From positions 1-28,639 of IMG/VR virus record IMGVR_UViG_3300036982_000033: DNA of 28,639 bases. One strand, written 5' to 3'. Below the pieces are notes generated by a model. That model saw only the letters and a program-made list of their open reading frames with translations, had not been told where the DNA came from and did no database searches. Every line of letters begins with the position of its first letter. Position 1 is the first letter of the stretch. The translations under genes and the position numbers were made by a program. This DNA comes from a virus (Duplodnaviria > Caudoviricetes). Positions 1,943 to 8,806 of the stretch are shown piece after piece.

Positions 1943-2737
1943 TTAAAATGGTTTTGGTTCTCCTAATAACTCTACTAATTCTGGAATCCCATTGTTGTCA
2001 ATCACAATGTCAAATGATTGGAATTGTAAGCCTCTTGTATCGTTTGCGCTTATTGTGCTTCTGTTGTGTATGTCTTTGTTCTTAACTATCTTCAATACTG
2101 TTTCTGCCTTCTGTGCTAACATGGTACCTATGTGGCCCCTTGCTTTGCCATCGGATGCGTTCTCATGTAGTATGCAACTGCAATGAATATTATATTCTTT
2201 TGTGATGTGCATAATCCATTGGACCAACTCGCTGCATTCTTTTAAGTCATTGAAATCATATAGCAAATCTACTATTCCATCAATTAAAATATAGCTTATA
2301 GTTCCTTTGTGTCCCTTAAGGAAGTGTTCTATTAGTTCCTTTCGTTCTGTTGGTGTACTATCTCTAAATGCAAAGTAATAGAAATTATTTGAACCGGCCA
2401 TGTATTCAATACGTTGATTAGTTTTTTGTGCATGGTATGCGCTTTGTTCTGTGTCGAATATAGCTAAGGTTGTTCCATTTGGTGCATCTGAAACTAACAA
2501 ATCAAACTTATTCGGATTCAATAAGCTAACCGCAATTGATGAAGTGAAGAAAGTCTTTTTAGATTTCTGTCTACCTTGAATTAAACTAAGATCACCCAAA
2601 GAAAATATAGGAATATGAATTGAACTGGTCCCGCTTCTTTGTGCAACTGACAAAAGTGTTGGCGCTTTCTGTATTACCTTACTTGGATCAAGTCTGGTCT
2701 CATACAATTTGTTTGTAAGTAGGGTTAATTTATCCAT
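1943..2737 (-). CDS. AAA/RecA-like ATPase, probable replicative helicase (AAA_25-like)
   Basis: Walker A variant GRQKSKKT, FDTEQS, Walker B ILIDG, ILHEN and RGHIG. Start set at MDKLT (2737), overlapping the initiator stop, rather than 2806. Confidence 0.85.
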   Translation of the reverse strand: MDKLTLLTNKLYETRLDPSKVIQKAPTLLSVAQRSGTSSIHIPIFSLGDLSLIQGRQKSKKTFFTSSIAVSLLNPNKFDLLVSDAPNGTTLAIFDTEQSAYHAQKTNQRIEYMAGSNNFYYFAFRDSTPTERKELIEHFLKGHKGTISYILIDGIVDLLYDFNDLKECSELVQWIMHITKEYNIHCSCILHENASDGKARGHIGTMLAQKAETVLKIVKNKDIHNRSTISANDTRGLQFQSFDIVIDNNGIPELVELLGEPKPF

Positions 2738-3737
2738 TGATGAATTCATTTGCAGTTCTAACCTTTTGCCACATATCAAACTTATCGATGTACTTATCAG
2801 CATCACGGCTTACCCTTAAGAATTTACTTTTGCCGTTGCTATATCTTCCATACAAATCTTTTAAAGATGTTATACTGTCAATGTCAAAGTGTAGTTGATC
2901 ATCGTATAGTATTTCTTTTAAATATACTCCAATAGTAAATAATTTAAAGGTATCAAATTCGTGTTCCTTTTCTATCTGGTCAATGTCATACATCCATACA
3001 CCAAGATCTGCACTATTCAATAAATCTAAATTATCGTTTCTTTTTATCCTTTTAGCTATATCTGTAAATAGAACATAGAAACCAACAACTGCACGGTACT
3101 TTACACGGTGAATGTCTTTAATAGGTAATATGTCAATATCGCAGTCTTTTAATAAAATACCATTTGCACCTTCTTTCTTTGCGCTATCTTTTAAAGGAAA
3201 TACACCTTGCCAATTGTTCATAATAGATTGCTCTAAGATTTCAATTTGCGTTTGTTCATCTGCAGGTGCTAACTTTTCTAATTTAGATTTTAACAATTCA
3301 ATTGCTTTGCCTGTCATTGGTTTCTTAAGTTGTTTTCTCATAACCAAAAAAGAATCAAAAACAGAATCAAAAAGACTATTATTTATATCATTATCAGTAT
3401 CATTATCAGTATCGGCTTTTTTGGGTTCAGTTGGGTTACCAGATAACCCAGTGGGTTTTTTGGGTTCTTCTTGTTCTTCTTGCTTTGGTCTGCCACCTAA
3501 TTTACCATTTGATTTGTTTCTATTGCTAATACTTTCGTACTTTACTAAGTCACGTTTCAATTGTAATTTAATTGGTTCAAATGATAAATCAATGATTCTA
3601 TCAACTGGATTTGGATTCTCGTCATTCACATAAGAAAATATGTGTTTGATTAATTGACCTGCTTCTTGGTCGTTTAACTTATCAAAGTAACTTCTTTGAT
3701 CAGTGTAAAGCACGAATGATTTTTTGTTTAATGCCAT
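2730..3737 (-). CDS. Phage replication initiator / replisome organizer (DUF6291-like N-terminus)
   Basis: KKSFVLY...AGQLIKHIFSY, NGKLGGRPK, a low-complexity linker, and KPMT...EQSIMNNWQGVFPLK; lies directly upstream of the helicase-like gene. Confidence 0.8.
   Translation of the reverse strand: MALNKKSFVLYTDQRSYFDKLNDQEAGQLIKHIFSYVNDENPNPVDRIIDLSFEPIKLQLKRDLVKYESISNRNKSNGKLGGRPKQEEQEEPKKPTGLSGNPTEPKKADTDNDTDNDINNSLFDSVFDSFLVMRKQLKKPMTGKAIELLKSKLEKLAPADEQTQIEILEQSIMNNWQGVFPLKDSAKKEGANGILLKDCDIDILPIKDIHRVKYRAVVGFYVLFTDIAKRIKRNDNLDLLNSADLGVWMYDIDQIEKEHEFDTFKLFTIGVYLKEILYDDQLHFDIDSITSLKDLYGRYSNGKSKFLRVSRDADKYIDKFDMWQKVRTANEFING
3386..3466. repeat. Iteron-like repeats inside the initiator gene (candidate origin)
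   Basis: TGGGTT at 3422, 3432, 3452 and 3461, an inverted AACCCA at 3445, and TATCATTATCAG twice at 3386-3409. Confidence 0.6.
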
Positions 3738-3738
3738 T

Positions 3739-3853
3739 ATGTATCACGTTTTTTTTTAAAGAAACAAGGGAAGGGCGTGATACATTTTTTGAATGAACCT
3801 CCCCAAGTTTCAATATTTTAAATAAATTATTTGCTAATTTTAAATGTATCACG
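3739..3853 (-). promoter_or_regulatory. Structured 5' leader of the initiator gene (A / anti-A / A repeats plus hairpin)
   Basis: ATGTATCACG at 3739-3748 and 3844-3853, its reverse complement at 3776-3785, inside a hairpin with arms at ~3761-3774 and ~3798-3811. Confidence 0.7.
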
Positions 3854-3856
3854 ATG

Positions 3857-3864
3857 CAAATATA
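3857..3864 (-). promoter_or_regulatory. Bacteroidota -7 promoter element for the replication genes
   Basis: TATATTTG matches TAnnTTTG and sits immediately before the structured leader. Confidence 0.7.
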
Positions 3865-3909
3865 CTCTTTATTTTATCTCTTATCTACTTATTTATAATT
3901 TGTCAATAA

Positions 3910-4167
3910 CTATTTAGCCTCAACCGTTAATTCCCCAATTGGCGTGCTTAACACATCGTGATCAATAGAATCCATTATAACATTAAAGTTATGTATTATT
4001 CTTTCGTGTGTAGCCGAATCCATATCTTCCAATATGTAGCTTTGTTTAGCGGCCCAGTCTTCAATACTTCTTATTGCCTTTTTAAATCCATTGTTAGGCA
4101 TATCTACCTGATCAATGATAGTAAGTAGTCTTACAGTGCTGATGTATAATTCAATGGCTGGCTTCAT
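3910..4167 (-). CDS. Hypothetical protein (85 aa)
   Basis: ATGA overlap with the upstream ORF. Confidence 0.7.
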   Translation of the reverse strand: MKPAIELYISTVRLLTIIDQVDMPNNGFKKAIRSIEDWAAKQSYILEDMDSATHERIIHNFNVIMDSIDHDVLSTPIGELTVEAK

Positions 4168-4337: not shown

Positions 4338-4756
4338 TTTATTTGTTGTTTTACTTTTTGCCAGTATTTTAATGTGCTTTTCTTTTTGTGTCCATTGCAC
4401 CCACCATTCCAATTGCGGGCAATCTTTTGATCTGTTGCATTCTTTGTGTGTGATCTTATCACATTGAACATTTCAATGCTTTTTGCCTTACTCCAACGAT
4501 CTTTTAACGTGTATTTATCTTCACCAAGTAACCTATTTACCTCTCTAACCATGATAGGGCGTATTTGCAAGCAGCCTACTGCATCTTCTTTGGAATTGTA
4601 GGCAAGTGTATCAAAATTAGATTCAACGGCCATCACGGCGTTTAAAAGTGTATCTATTGGAATAGGTTCTATAATTGGCTTATCGTACCACATAGATTGT
4701 GTACTAATAAATGCCAAAAGTGATAATGATAAGATTGTTTGTTTCTTATTTAACAT
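4334..4756 (-). CDS. Lytic transglycosylase (SLT/lysozyme-like) with N-terminal signal or anchor
   Basis: AVMAVES (catalytic Glu), AVGCLQI and ARNWNGG motifs; hydrophobic N-terminus. Confidence 0.85.
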   Translation of the reverse strand: MLNKKQTILSLSLLAFISTQSMWYDKPIIEPIPIDTLLNAVMAVESNFDTLAYNSKEDAVGCLQIRPIMVREVNRLLGEDKYTLKDRWSKAKSIEMFNVIRSHTKNATDQKIARNWNGGCNGHKKKSTLKYWQKVKQQIK

Positions 4757-4760
4757 GTGG

Positions 4761-4821
4761 CAAAAGTAATGTACAAACTATATGCAAAGTAATAGTTTAA
4801 CTATTTATAATCAATCAAAAT
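4761..4821 (-). promoter_or_regulatory. Leftward promoter with upstream 19-bp box
   Basis: -7 TACTTTTG at 4761-4768, TGCATATAGTTT at 4775-4786, and box ATTTATAATCAATCAAAAT at 4803-4821. Confidence 0.8.
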
Positions 4822-4854
4822 AGTGTACATTTAAAATACATCTATTAATATGCT

Positions 4855-4862
4855 TAAATTTG
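4855..4862 (+). promoter_or_regulatory. -7 element of the rightward promoter
   Basis: TAAATTTG lies 4 nt before the ATG at 4867. Confidence 0.55.
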
Positions 4863-4866
4863 CAGC

Positions 4867-5166
4867 ATGATTAAAAACAATATACTATTGATTGGCTTCA
4901 TCGTTGGCATCCTGCTGATGGTAATTATAGTCAACCTCACCCAGTGCCGCAAACCTGCACCACCGGAACCTGATCCAATTGAACAAATAGATTCTATTGA
5001 ATTACGAATTGACACACTACAAATAACTAAAATTAAAACCATAACCAAATTAAAAACCAAAATACAATATGAAACAAGTATTATTTCTCGCACTCCTGAC
5101 AGTGGGCAAATTATCATTCGCGCAAACCTCCGTGATTCAATCGACTTCTATTTGCATACAAGATAG
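4867..5166 (+). CDS. Membrane-anchored or lipoprotein-like protein, putative spanin component
   Basis: N-terminal hydrophobic helix, then LTQC and a Pro-rich linker; overlaps the next ORF by 98 bp. Confidence 0.6.
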   Translation: MIKNNILLIGFIVGILLMVIIVNLTQCRKPAPPEPDPIEQIDSIELRIDTLQITKIKTITKLKTKIQYETSIISRTPDSGQIIIRANLRDSIDFYLHTR

Positions 5167-8267: not shown

Positions 8268-8806
8268 CAAATAAACAATTAAGAAAAGAAATAAACGATA
8301 ATAAACAATTGCTCACTGCAATGGGCATATACATAAATGAACTTGAAGACCGACTAAAAAAGAACGGTTATATGAGCGAACGAATAATGCAACTTAGAAC
8401 AAAACACAACCTGCAAAATTCCGATAATCAATATATGCAAATAGCTTATAGTTATGAAACAAACTTTGACTTACTTATGTCAGTTATTTCATATTACTAC
8501 AAAGAAAGCCCCGAACAAATAAAAAGTCATTGCAGAAAGCAAAGGTTTGTAATACCCCGCCACATGTTTAGTTACCTTGTTAAGCAATACATGCCTGATA
8601 TGGTACTGACTGACATTGGTTCCTATTTAGGTGGGCGTGATCATTCCAGTGTGATACATGGGCAGCAAACTATTTCCAAATTCTTAGAGTTTGACAAAAA
8701 GACTAAACGTGACTATGCCGCTATCGTTCAAATGCTAAATGATATTGCAGCAAATAACAATGACGCAAGCTATTTGCAAACACCCGCTTATTTGGAATCA
8801 GTCTAA
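8264..8806 (+). CDS. DnaA C-terminal (domain IV) HTH protein
   Basis: RKQRFVIPRHMFSYL...LTDIGSYLGGRDHSSVIHG matches the DnaA domain IV signature; no AAA domain. Confidence 0.85.
   Translation: MTNKQLRKEINDNKQLLTAMGIYINELEDRLKKNGYMSERIMQLRTKHNLQNSDNQYMQIAYSYETNFDLLMSVISYYYKESPEQIKSHCRKQRFVIPRHMFSYLVKQYMPDMVLTDIGSYLGGRDHSSVIHGQQTISKFLEFDKKTKRDYAAIVQMLNDIAANNNDASYLQTPAYLESV

What the first reader, a model, noticed from the sequence alone, without database searches (positions are those of the whole stretch)
3735..3864. Three-way A / anti-A / A leader: candidate RNA switch controlling the replication initiator
Seen: right after a -7 element, the minus transcript would begin with CGUGAUACAUUU (3853-3842). 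It then forms a hairpin (GAAAC-UU-GGGGAGG / CCUUCCC-UU-GUUUC) whose large loop contains the exact 12-nt complement AAAUGUAUCACG (3787-3776). It repeats CGUGAUACAU (3748-3739) one base before the AUG. Inference: the loop can pair either with the 5' copy (start codon free) or with the 3' copy (start occluded), giving two exclusive pseudoknot-like states. This is conceptually like plasmid rep pseudoknot control. Three exact 10-mers in 115 bp are unlikely to be chance. An alternative is three protein operator sites.
Basis: partly seen in the sequence, partly recalled or inferred. Interest (0 to 1): 0.8.

Follow-up and report, generated by a model that had tools for sequence, protein, structure and literature searches.

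The report
Three-site RNA switch before phage initiator
In front of this phage's probable replication-initiator gene lies a 120-base leader whose hairpin loop matches both the start of a hidden short reading frame and the start of the initiator; the three matching sites change together in related phages, so it is likely an RNA switch, predicted to turn the initiator on when a ribosome reads the short frame and off when the loop covers either start.

Summary
The element belongs to a widespread leader class of Bacteroidota-type phages with no Rfam match. In 47 of 55 non-redundant homologous leaders the hairpin loop pairs best, or nearly best, with its own 5' end. A three-site subgroup uses about a dozen codes that do not cross-pair and that change at all three sites together; sister phages exchange the whole leader. 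All 9 long three-site leaders have such a frame (0.8 expected), as do 4 of 4 fetched afterwards, with unrelated peptides. The loop therefore matches both start codons. Most likely a ribosome on the short frame melts the hairpin (on) and either pairing represses (off), as tap does for repA in plasmid R1, but with a same-strand 'antisense' as in phage P4. It is a member of neither family. Action in trans is open, and no usable RNA data were found. This scan noted the leader class before on other DNA; my look-ups returned no note of the short frame.

The parts
3857..3864 (-). Bacteroidota -7 promoter box TATATTTG; predicted start site G3852 (or T3851)
   Evidence: Sequence; consensus and 4-5 nt spacing from PMC6847099 and PMC7366714; same box before 60 non-redundant homologous leaders. 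Start site not mapped.
3842..3852 (-). A1: first copy, at the predicted 5' end; contains the GUG that opens the leader frame
3700..3852 (-). Unannotated leader reading frame, GTG...TGA, 50 codons, running through the hairpin and 35 nt past the initiator AUG in another frame; translation inferred, not shown
   Evidence: no PHROG match
3761..3811 (-). Hairpin: 5-bp lower stem, 2x2 U internal loop, 7-bp upper stem, 23-nt loop
3776..3787 (-). anti-A in the hairpin loop, complementary to A1 (11 bp from the predicted +1) and to A3 (10 bp)
3749..3757 (-). A9 tract at -20 to -12 of the initiator AUG (typical Bacteroidota initiation signal; would also be the linker of a hairpin-A3 pseudoknot)
   Evidence: Sequence; adenines at -12/-13 favour initiation, PMC6847099
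3739..3748 (-). A3: third site, covering -11 to -2 of the initiator start
2730..3737 (-). Probable replication initiator, 335 aa
   Evidence: Pfam DUF6291 E 1.4e-22; PHROG 678 'replication initiation O-like' E 4.1e-16; homologues in cultured Flavobacterium elemo phages are annotated 'replication protein'
1943..2806 (-). Next gene of the operon, weakly DnaB-like (true start probably near 2737-2749)
   Evidence: PHROG 243 E 3.7e-4

Best explanation
The leader is an RNA switch whose hairpin loop is complementary to two start regions, that of a short leader reading frame (A1) and that of the probable initiator (A3), and it likely works by leader-peptide coupling: a ribosome that loads on the short frame would melt the hairpin and leave the initiator start open, whereas pairing of the loop with A1 or A3 would block the respective start. 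Shown by sequence comparison: the three-way complementarity, its co-variation, the open frame and the exchange of leaders between sister phages. Inferred: the start site at G3852, translation of the frame, the sign of each pairing, and a hairpin-A3 pseudoknot (loop 11 nt / 1 nt / about 12 nt, H-type geometry). In cis, ribosome loading at +1 would race against A1:anti-A pairing, which becomes possible about 65-75 nt later; this would limit initiator output per transcript and tie it to the host's translation capacity. A released hairpin RNA acting in trans on new transcripts would sharpen the shut-off, but that step has no direct evidence.
For: (1) Specific pairing: in 47 of 55 non-redundant leaders with a stable hairpin, at most 2 of 54 foreign 5' regions pair with the loop as well as the leader's own. 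(2) Three-site form: 17 of 706 distinct promoter-like sites against 0-3 in 20 5'-swap controls; the code matrix of 18 three-site leaders is block-diagonal; L082 versus L275 swap the same two bases at all three sites. (3) RNA, sense strand: G.U pairs in A1:anti-A of L086/L002/L091 and L279; sense fold more stable than antisense in 44 of 55. (4) Leader frame: 9 of 9 long three-site leaders have an AUG/GUG frame open through the hairpin, 0.78 expected, 0 of 200,000 simulations; in 10 of 10 it is the only AUG/GUG before the hairpin, joint P about 3e-7 over 7 lineages under local shuffles; 4 of 4 leaders fetched after the idea arose agree; all indels among four L081-type leaders fall outside the frame; phi19:3 and phi13:2 differ by a +1/-1 pair that restores the frame and stop. 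(5) A1 overlaps -6..+5 of the frame's start in 15 of 19 leaders, permutation P = 0.0012; where A1 lacks GUG (L081, L082, L255, L275, L277-279) an AUG follows it. (6) The frame's stop varies from -30 to +61 of the main AUG but always lies at or beyond the hairpin end, which fits melting rather than occlusion. (7) Precedent: R1 tap-repA and IncI repY-repZ coupling (passages in PMC12361487 and PMC8053102).
Against: No RNA or ribosome data: start site, translation and structures are unmeasured. In the window the frame would be a leaderless GUG start, whereas 87% of Flavobacterium transcripts have leaders over 10 nt. Only 2 of 6 short three-site leaders and 14 of 47 other leaders have a through frame (at least L009 and L070 among the 14 look incidental), so the frame is not universal in the class. 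The four held-out leaders are 76-96% identical to types already seen. The frame idea arose after looking at these sequences, although the group was defined before. A 10-bp loop pairing is near a full helical turn and may form only in part. Nearest-neighbour folding cannot rank pseudoknots; the nested A1:anti-A fold and the hairpin differ by only 2 kcal/mol in the window.
Confidence: 0.55

Rival explanations
1. Decoy switch: A1 captures anti-A during transcription and so keeps A3 and the initiator start free (on); when A1 is unavailable, for example because a ribosome on the leader frame or another RNA covers it, the loop pairs with A3 (off). The leader frame would then be inhibitory.
For: Prefix folding: A1:anti-A has probability near 1 until about 12 nt past anti-A are made, in all 12 long three-site leaders; A1:anti-A is at least as long as anti-A:A3 in 11 of those 12; A1 sits at a free 5' end that could thread the loop.
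Against: A ribosome on the frame also passes through anti-A and usually A3, which should break the off state; in two-site leaders with a U-tract (L093, L103, L263, phi19:3) the frame crosses the terminator, where translation is expected to prevent termination (established knowledge, recalled); the frame often stops before the main AUG (L081, L082, L083, L277-279), so it cannot act by overlap.
Confidence: 0.22
2. Plain transcription attenuator: the hairpin is an intrinsic terminator, A1:anti-A is its antiterminator, and the frame and A3 are secondary.
For: 35 of 42 two-site or other leaders have at least 6 U in the 8 nt after a G-C pair of the 3' arm; in the window the upper stem is followed by 6 U of 8.
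Against: Only 5 of 12 long three-site leaders reach 6 U and 1 of 12 reaches 7; the window hairpin has a 23-nt loop and was not called by the terminator scan, which allows loops of 3-8 only; A3 lies downstream of the putative stop point yet co-varies.
Confidence: 0.1
3. Plasmid-style control by an antisense RNA made from the opposite strand.
For: The plus strand of 3739-3785 folds into a long G.U-rich hairpin followed by a U run; a frame with a start crosses the hairpin on the antisense strand in 2 of 6 long leaders.
Against: No antisense TAnnTTTG box in the leader or first 350 nt of the gene in 9 of 10 leaders; sense folds are more stable in 44 of 55; an opposite-strand RNA would not need repeated copies on the sense strand.
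Confidence: 0.04
4. Three DNA operator sites for a repressor or for the initiator itself.
For: A1 overlaps the start site, as operators often do.
Against: Phages with 94-100% identical initiator 5' ends carry unrelated 10-mers (WIN, L081, L082); orientation is always A / anti-A / A with anti-A in a loop; G.U wobbles are accepted; no further exact copy in the window; no HTH_3 repressor above cut-off in 5 near-complete relatives.
Confidence: 0.02

Closest known systems
Satellite phage P4 immunity: CI RNA with targets seqA and seqC (passage read in PMC4825925; the primary paper PMC176756 was not held)
   Same: Target / antisense / target order on one strand in the leader of replication genes; no opposite-strand RNA needed.
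   Different: No sequence or Rfam similarity; Bacteroidota promoter and hosts; one loop in a simple hairpin; both targets are start-codon regions and a reading frame crosses the hairpin; processing and action in trans not shown; carriers mostly lack lysogeny genes.
Phage P1/P7 C4 antisense RNA (passages read in PMC5320573; Rfam RF01695 per PMC2864571)
   Same: A variable loop sequence sets specificity between related phages; a target overlaps a translation start.
   Different: C4 has three stem-loops, two pairing loops (a', b') and RNase P processing; here one loop, no Rfam match, processing unknown.
Plasmid R1 tap-repA and IncI/IncB repY-repZ leader-peptide coupling (passages in PMC12361487, PMC8053102, PMC8383071)
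   Same: A short leader frame ends near the initiator start; blocking the leader start would block the initiator; peptide sequence appears unimportant.
   Different: There the inhibitor is a separate opposite-strand RNA (CopA, Inc); here the complementary element lies inside the leader frame on the same strand and also matches the initiator start. The IncI pseudoknot activates; the hairpin-A3 pairing here would repress.
Gifsy-1 IsrK-orf45-anrP (abstract and two passages of PMC4825925)
   Same: Phage leader with a short upstream frame coupled to the next gene and a same-strand short RNA acting on the read-through transcript.
   Different: IsrK activates in trans and controls an antiterminator; no similarity found by Rfam.
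Leader attenuators such as pT181 and the pLS20 zipper-type attenuator (abstract of PMC13401043; passage in PMC8383071)
   Same: Alternative folds in a 5' leader; the two-site relatives end in terminator-like hairpins.
   Different: Pairing here is to the loop, not the stem arm; the window's subgroup lacks a conserved U-tract.

Membership tests
P4 CI / seqA / seqC immunity | Antisense element flanked by two complementary targets on the same strand, upstream of replication genes | tested here: met
P4 CI / P1 C4 RNAs | Homology to the C4/CI structure families in Rfam | tested here: not met
   0 hits at gathering score in the window and in 20 homologous loci; best E 3.9 in 3600-4000
P4 CI / P1 C4 RNAs | Processed small RNA that acts in trans | not testable with these tools
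   Only assembled contigs of two runs were available
P4 CI / P1 C4 RNAs | Role in lysogeny: integrase or repressor in the same genome | tested here: not met
   Tyrosine integrase 0 of 5, serine resolvase 0 of 5, HTH_3 0 of 5 over cut-off in near-complete relatives; integrase in 1 of 3 cultured carriers. The window itself is a partial genome.
P1 C4 RNA | Three stem-loops with two pairing loops | tested here: not met
   One hairpin, one pairing loop
R1 tap-repA / IncI repY-repZ | Leader reading frame ending near or overlapping the initiator start | tested here: met
   (sequence level only)
R1 tap-repA / IncI repY-repZ | Antisense RNA from a promoter on the opposite strand | tested here: not met
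   No antisense -7 box in 9 of 10 leaders; other promoter types not excluded
R1 tap-repA / IncI repY-repZ | Initiator translation depends on leader translation | not testable with these tools
   Needs reporter fusions
Intrinsic-terminator attenuator | Hairpin followed by a conserved U-tract | tested here: inconclusive
   Window 6 of 8 U after the upper stem, 3 of 8 after the lower; 5 of 12 long three-site leaders reach 6 U, against 35 of 42 others
DNA operator array | Site sequence conserved among phages with the same cognate protein | tested here: not met

The most novel reading that the evidence does not exclude
A protein-free self-recognition system of Bacteroidota phages: the hairpin is cut out of the AU-rich leader, accumulates with phage copy number, and its loop blocks both the leader-peptide start and the initiator start on any new transcript with the same code. 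The 120-nt leader is then an exchangeable incompatibility cassette that counts genomes and excludes same-code superinfecting phages, even in virulent phages; swapping it lets a sister phage escape.
Probability: 0.35. Interest if true: 0.9.

Novelty: new variant of a known kind. Interest (0 to 1): 0.76.

Why it matters
Bacteroidota ribosomes do not use Shine-Dalgarno pairing, and little is known of how their phages control replication genes. This is a compact, very common control element (most homologous initiators with their own promoter carry a form of it) that standard covariance searches can miss because only complementarity, not sequence, is kept. It joins two principles known separately: same-strand antisense (P4, P1) and leader-peptide coupling (R1, IncI). 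Cultured phages carry versions of it (Cellulophaga phi19:3 and phi13:2 with the leader frame; Flavobacterium elemoA and lillamy9-3 without), so it can be tested now. About a dozen codes that do not cross-pair would also be a natural set of orthogonal translation switches for Flavobacterium and Bacteroides genetics. If it acts in trans it would be an RNA-only incompatibility system among phages.

Tried and rejected
Diversifying selection on the code: one search seemed to show the code changing twice as fast as the rest of the leader, but its pairs were not independent and were binned on the rest; with 15 independent pairs the code diverged less (0.154 against 0.207; 4895 of 5000 null draws as high or higher), though 9 of 15 pairs had changed both sites. 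Rejected as evidence for action in trans. RNA data: the one run search gave one RNA run with a 0.05 share and one run of unknown kind, both contigs only; laying them cannot show ends, strand or level; one contig of the RNA run covers part of an L275-type leader and the initiator start, which may be DNA. Formal stem covariation: the MAFFT alignment of 7 hairpins was out of register for the L086 group, and RNAalifold found 2 of 7 pairs with double changes; stems were therefore judged per sequence. DNA pattern scan of viral contigs: 19 hits, of which 3 were leaders (two already held, plus L179), the rest chance. Trans targets elsewhere in the window: no further exact copy; 32 matches at up to 2 mismatches against 23.8 expected. 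HNH gene as the carrier of a fixed leader: L293 has an 84% identical HNH behind a different, two-site leader. Cultured three-site example: none by blastn of the window leader. Prophages in species genomes: 9 loci; two Bacteroidota MAG leaders (L263, L265) show the two-site form, the Sphingobacterium and Chryseobacterium loci have no promoter directly upstream. Literature: 10 full-text searches; the two aimed at this element returned 0 papers. Main-text term searches of two motif surveys (PMC2864571, PMC5737381) and of PMC10690425 showed no such element. The supplement of PMC5737381 could not be read. In PMC10690425 three of the supplementary files, two too large and one beyond the fetch limit, were not searched, and its table lists candidate RNAs just upstream of DUF1376/DUF4373 genes (DNAVirus_187, DNAVirus_4548) that could be pieces of this class.

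Full report
Setting. The window is a phage contig (terminase, portal and capsid genes) and is the whole record held. The finding lies between an 85-aa gene (4167-3910) and a 335-aa gene (3737-2730) with a DUF6291 N-terminus and similarity to O-like initiators, followed by a weakly DnaB-like gene. The TAnnTTTG promoter box and the hosts of relatives (Bacteroidota genomes, Flavobacterium and Cellulophaga phages) point to a Bacteroidota host; this is inferred.

Observation. It is the only exact 10-mer A / anti-A / A triplet in the window; 0 of 100 shuffled windows and 1 of 20,000 local shuffles give one. Rfam finds nothing in the window, in 20 homologous loci, or below E 3.9 locally. With 4-5 nt between the -7 box and the start site (PMC6847099), +1 is probably G3852, which puts A1 at the extreme 5' end.

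A leader class. I fetched 250 loci by initiator homology and 19 by a DNA pattern. Of these 269 loci plus the window, 232 had at least 150 nt upstream of an initiator start; they formed 115 clusters, of which 39 had no promoter box directly upstream and 60 had a strict one. Of the 60, 55 had a hairpin of -8 kcal/mol or better. In 47 of 55, at most 2 of the 54 foreign 5' regions paired with the loop as well as the leader's own did. The pairing sequences differ freely between leaders. Most of these are two-site leaders, often with A in the loop of a small 5' hairpin and a U-tract after the large one (35 of 42 with at least 6 U of 8). Cultured phages carry them: Cellulophaga phi19:3 and phi13:2, Flavobacterium elemoA and lillamy9-3.

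The three-site form. A detector requiring promoter, A, anti-A and a third copy before an open AUG found 17 of 706 distinct promoter-like sites, against 0-3 in each of 20 swap controls (one listed hit, L261, is low-complexity and was set aside). Codes include GUGAUACA (window, L083, L090), GCGAAACA (L081), AACAUCAC (L082), CGUGCAACA (L084, L089), GUGAACAG (L179), GUGACAGACA with GACAAACA as third site (L086 group), AAGCUAC (L255) and five shorter ones; each loop pairs well with its own code group and, apart from a few partial A1 matches, poorly with others. L082 and L275 differ by the same two-base swap at all three sites. G.U pairs occur in A1:anti-A of the L086 group and L279, and the sense strand folds better than the antisense in 44 of 55 leaders. 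This is RNA pairing on the transcribed strand and rules out operators.

The leader is an exchangeable cassette. The window, L081, L082 and L083 share 78-96% identity in the 45 nt ending at the -7 box and 94-100% in the first 240 nt of the initiator, yet hold three leader types at 53-58% identity, close to the shuffled baseline of 49% (maximum 55%). L090 has the window's code with unrelated upstream DNA. Of 16 families of sister loci, 8 hold two or more codes (for the L017 family the codes come). The L081-type leader stands before an HNH gene and before three other initiator-like proteins. Within leaders, however, the code does not change faster than stems and linkers, so exchange of whole leaders, not rapid point change, produces the variety. 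This fits selection for rare codes but also ordinary phage mosaicism.

The missed leader frame. From the predicted +1 the window reads GTG and stays open for 50 codons, through the hairpin and 35 nt past the initiator AUG. All 9 long three-site leaders tested have an AUG- or GUG-started frame open through the hairpin, where shuffles predict 0.78; short three-site leaders have 2 of 6 (0.87 expected) and the others 14 of 47 (5.8 expected, P = 0.0008). In 10 of 10 long leaders that start is the only AUG/GUG before the hairpin, and the joint chance under local shuffles over 7 lineages is about 3e-7. Four distinct three-site leaders fetched afterwards through the upstream gene (5 of 18 loci had a leader there, two identical) all agree, though they are 76-96% identical to known types. 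Indels among four L081-type leaders all fall outside the frame, and phi19:3 and phi13:2 differ by a +1/-1 pair that changes three residues but keeps frame and stop. Peptides of different leader types are unrelated. A1 overlaps -6..+5 of the frame's start in 15 of 19 leaders (20 had a through frame; L009, with no loop pairing, was dropped), P = 0.0012; the antisense control gives 3 of 55. The stop lies anywhere from -30 to +61 of the main AUG, always at or past the hairpin end.

Mechanism. Shown: the loop is complementary to both start regions, and selection keeps the complementarity and the open frame. Inferred: the frame is translated; its ribosome melts the hairpin, so that A3 and the A-rich initiation region (adenines at -3, -6, -12, -13 and low structure favour initiation; PMC6847099) stay free; the hairpin alone ends about 20 nt before the AUG, so repression needs the loop-A3 pairing. 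Prefix folding shows A1:anti-A forming first and the hairpin winning later by about 0-6 kcal/mol in the long leaders, 2 in the window (equilibrium folds, no pseudoknots, no polymerase). I therefore favour: ribosome on the frame = on, either pairing = off (0.55). A pure terminator role is weak for this subgroup (5 of 12 with 6 U or more).

Cis or trans. The layout is that of P4 seqA / CI / seqC, and specificity by a variable loop recalls P1 and P7 C4. In favour of action in trans: non-cross-pairing codes exchanged between sister phages, and AU-rich linkers on both sides of the hairpin. Against or neutral: no accelerated code change; no integrase, resolvase or HTH_3 repressor over cut-off in 5 near-complete relatives; an integrase in only 1 of 3 cultured carriers; the Baltic Flavobacterium isolates are described as virulent (abstract and passages of PMC7077304; I did not see the passage on lillamy9-3 itself). 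So classical lysogenic immunity is unlikely as the general purpose; limiting or timing initiator synthesis, with possible exclusion of same-code phages, is more likely. I put action in trans at about 0.35.

Novelty. It works like a union of R1 tap-repA coupling and P4-type same-strand antisense, but fails defining tests of both (no opposite-strand promoter box in 9 of 10; no Rfam homology). The searches listed under Tried and rejected found no description; unread supplements of two motif surveys may hold fragments of the class. Earlier notes of this scan report the kissing-loop and three-site leaders on other DNA; a look-up for a leader-peptide version returned none, and no look-alike of this stretch was on record. 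Verdict: a real, apparently undescribed RNA control element; new variant of a known kind; interest 0.76.

Noticed in passing
window 3386-3467: Direct repeats inside the initiator gene (two 15-nt copies at 3414-3428 and 3453-3467, two 12-nt copies at 3386-3409, and an inverted repeat at 3439-3463), placed like the origin iterons within lambda O-type genes.
   Followed up: partly
window 2730-3737 versus L082, L083, L275: Sister initiators share the N-terminus but differ in length (335 aa here, 198 aa in L082 and L083, 288 aa in L275), so the C-terminal part is also exchanged.
   Followed up: no
L081:833-1198; L255; L293: HNH endonuclease genes inserted between leader and initiator, taking the first position after the leader.
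   Followed up: partly
L004, L010, L012, L241, L245, about 90 nt before the initiator: A different leader design with a weak hairpin and, in L004, L241 and L245, a repeated motif just before the AUG that is complementary to an upstream segment.
   Followed up: no
L271:1088-1201, L274:1087-1201, L272:823-960, L273:1132-1286: Two-site leaders in cultured phages phi19:3, phi13:2, elemoA_1-9A and lillamy9-3; the first two include a 31-codon leader frame ending 5 nt past the initiator AUG.
   Followed up: yes
run X2 laid on L275:1514 and 1638; run X1 laid on window 3738: Contigs leave the reference exactly after the -7 box or at the AUG, matching the cassette boundaries; one continues with an AUG two bases after the predicted start site.
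   Followed up: no
window 8650-8659: One-mismatch copy of the 10-mer inside the DnaA C-terminal-domain gene; probably due to its coding motif.
   Followed up: no
window 4756-4867: Back-to-back TAnnTTTG-like boxes between divergent genes (SLT-domain gene on minus, 99-aa gene on plus), with no leader structure.
   Followed up: no
L039, L119, L136: Longer leaders with two separate loop pairings and a through frame whose AUG follows one of the pairing sites.
   Followed up: partly
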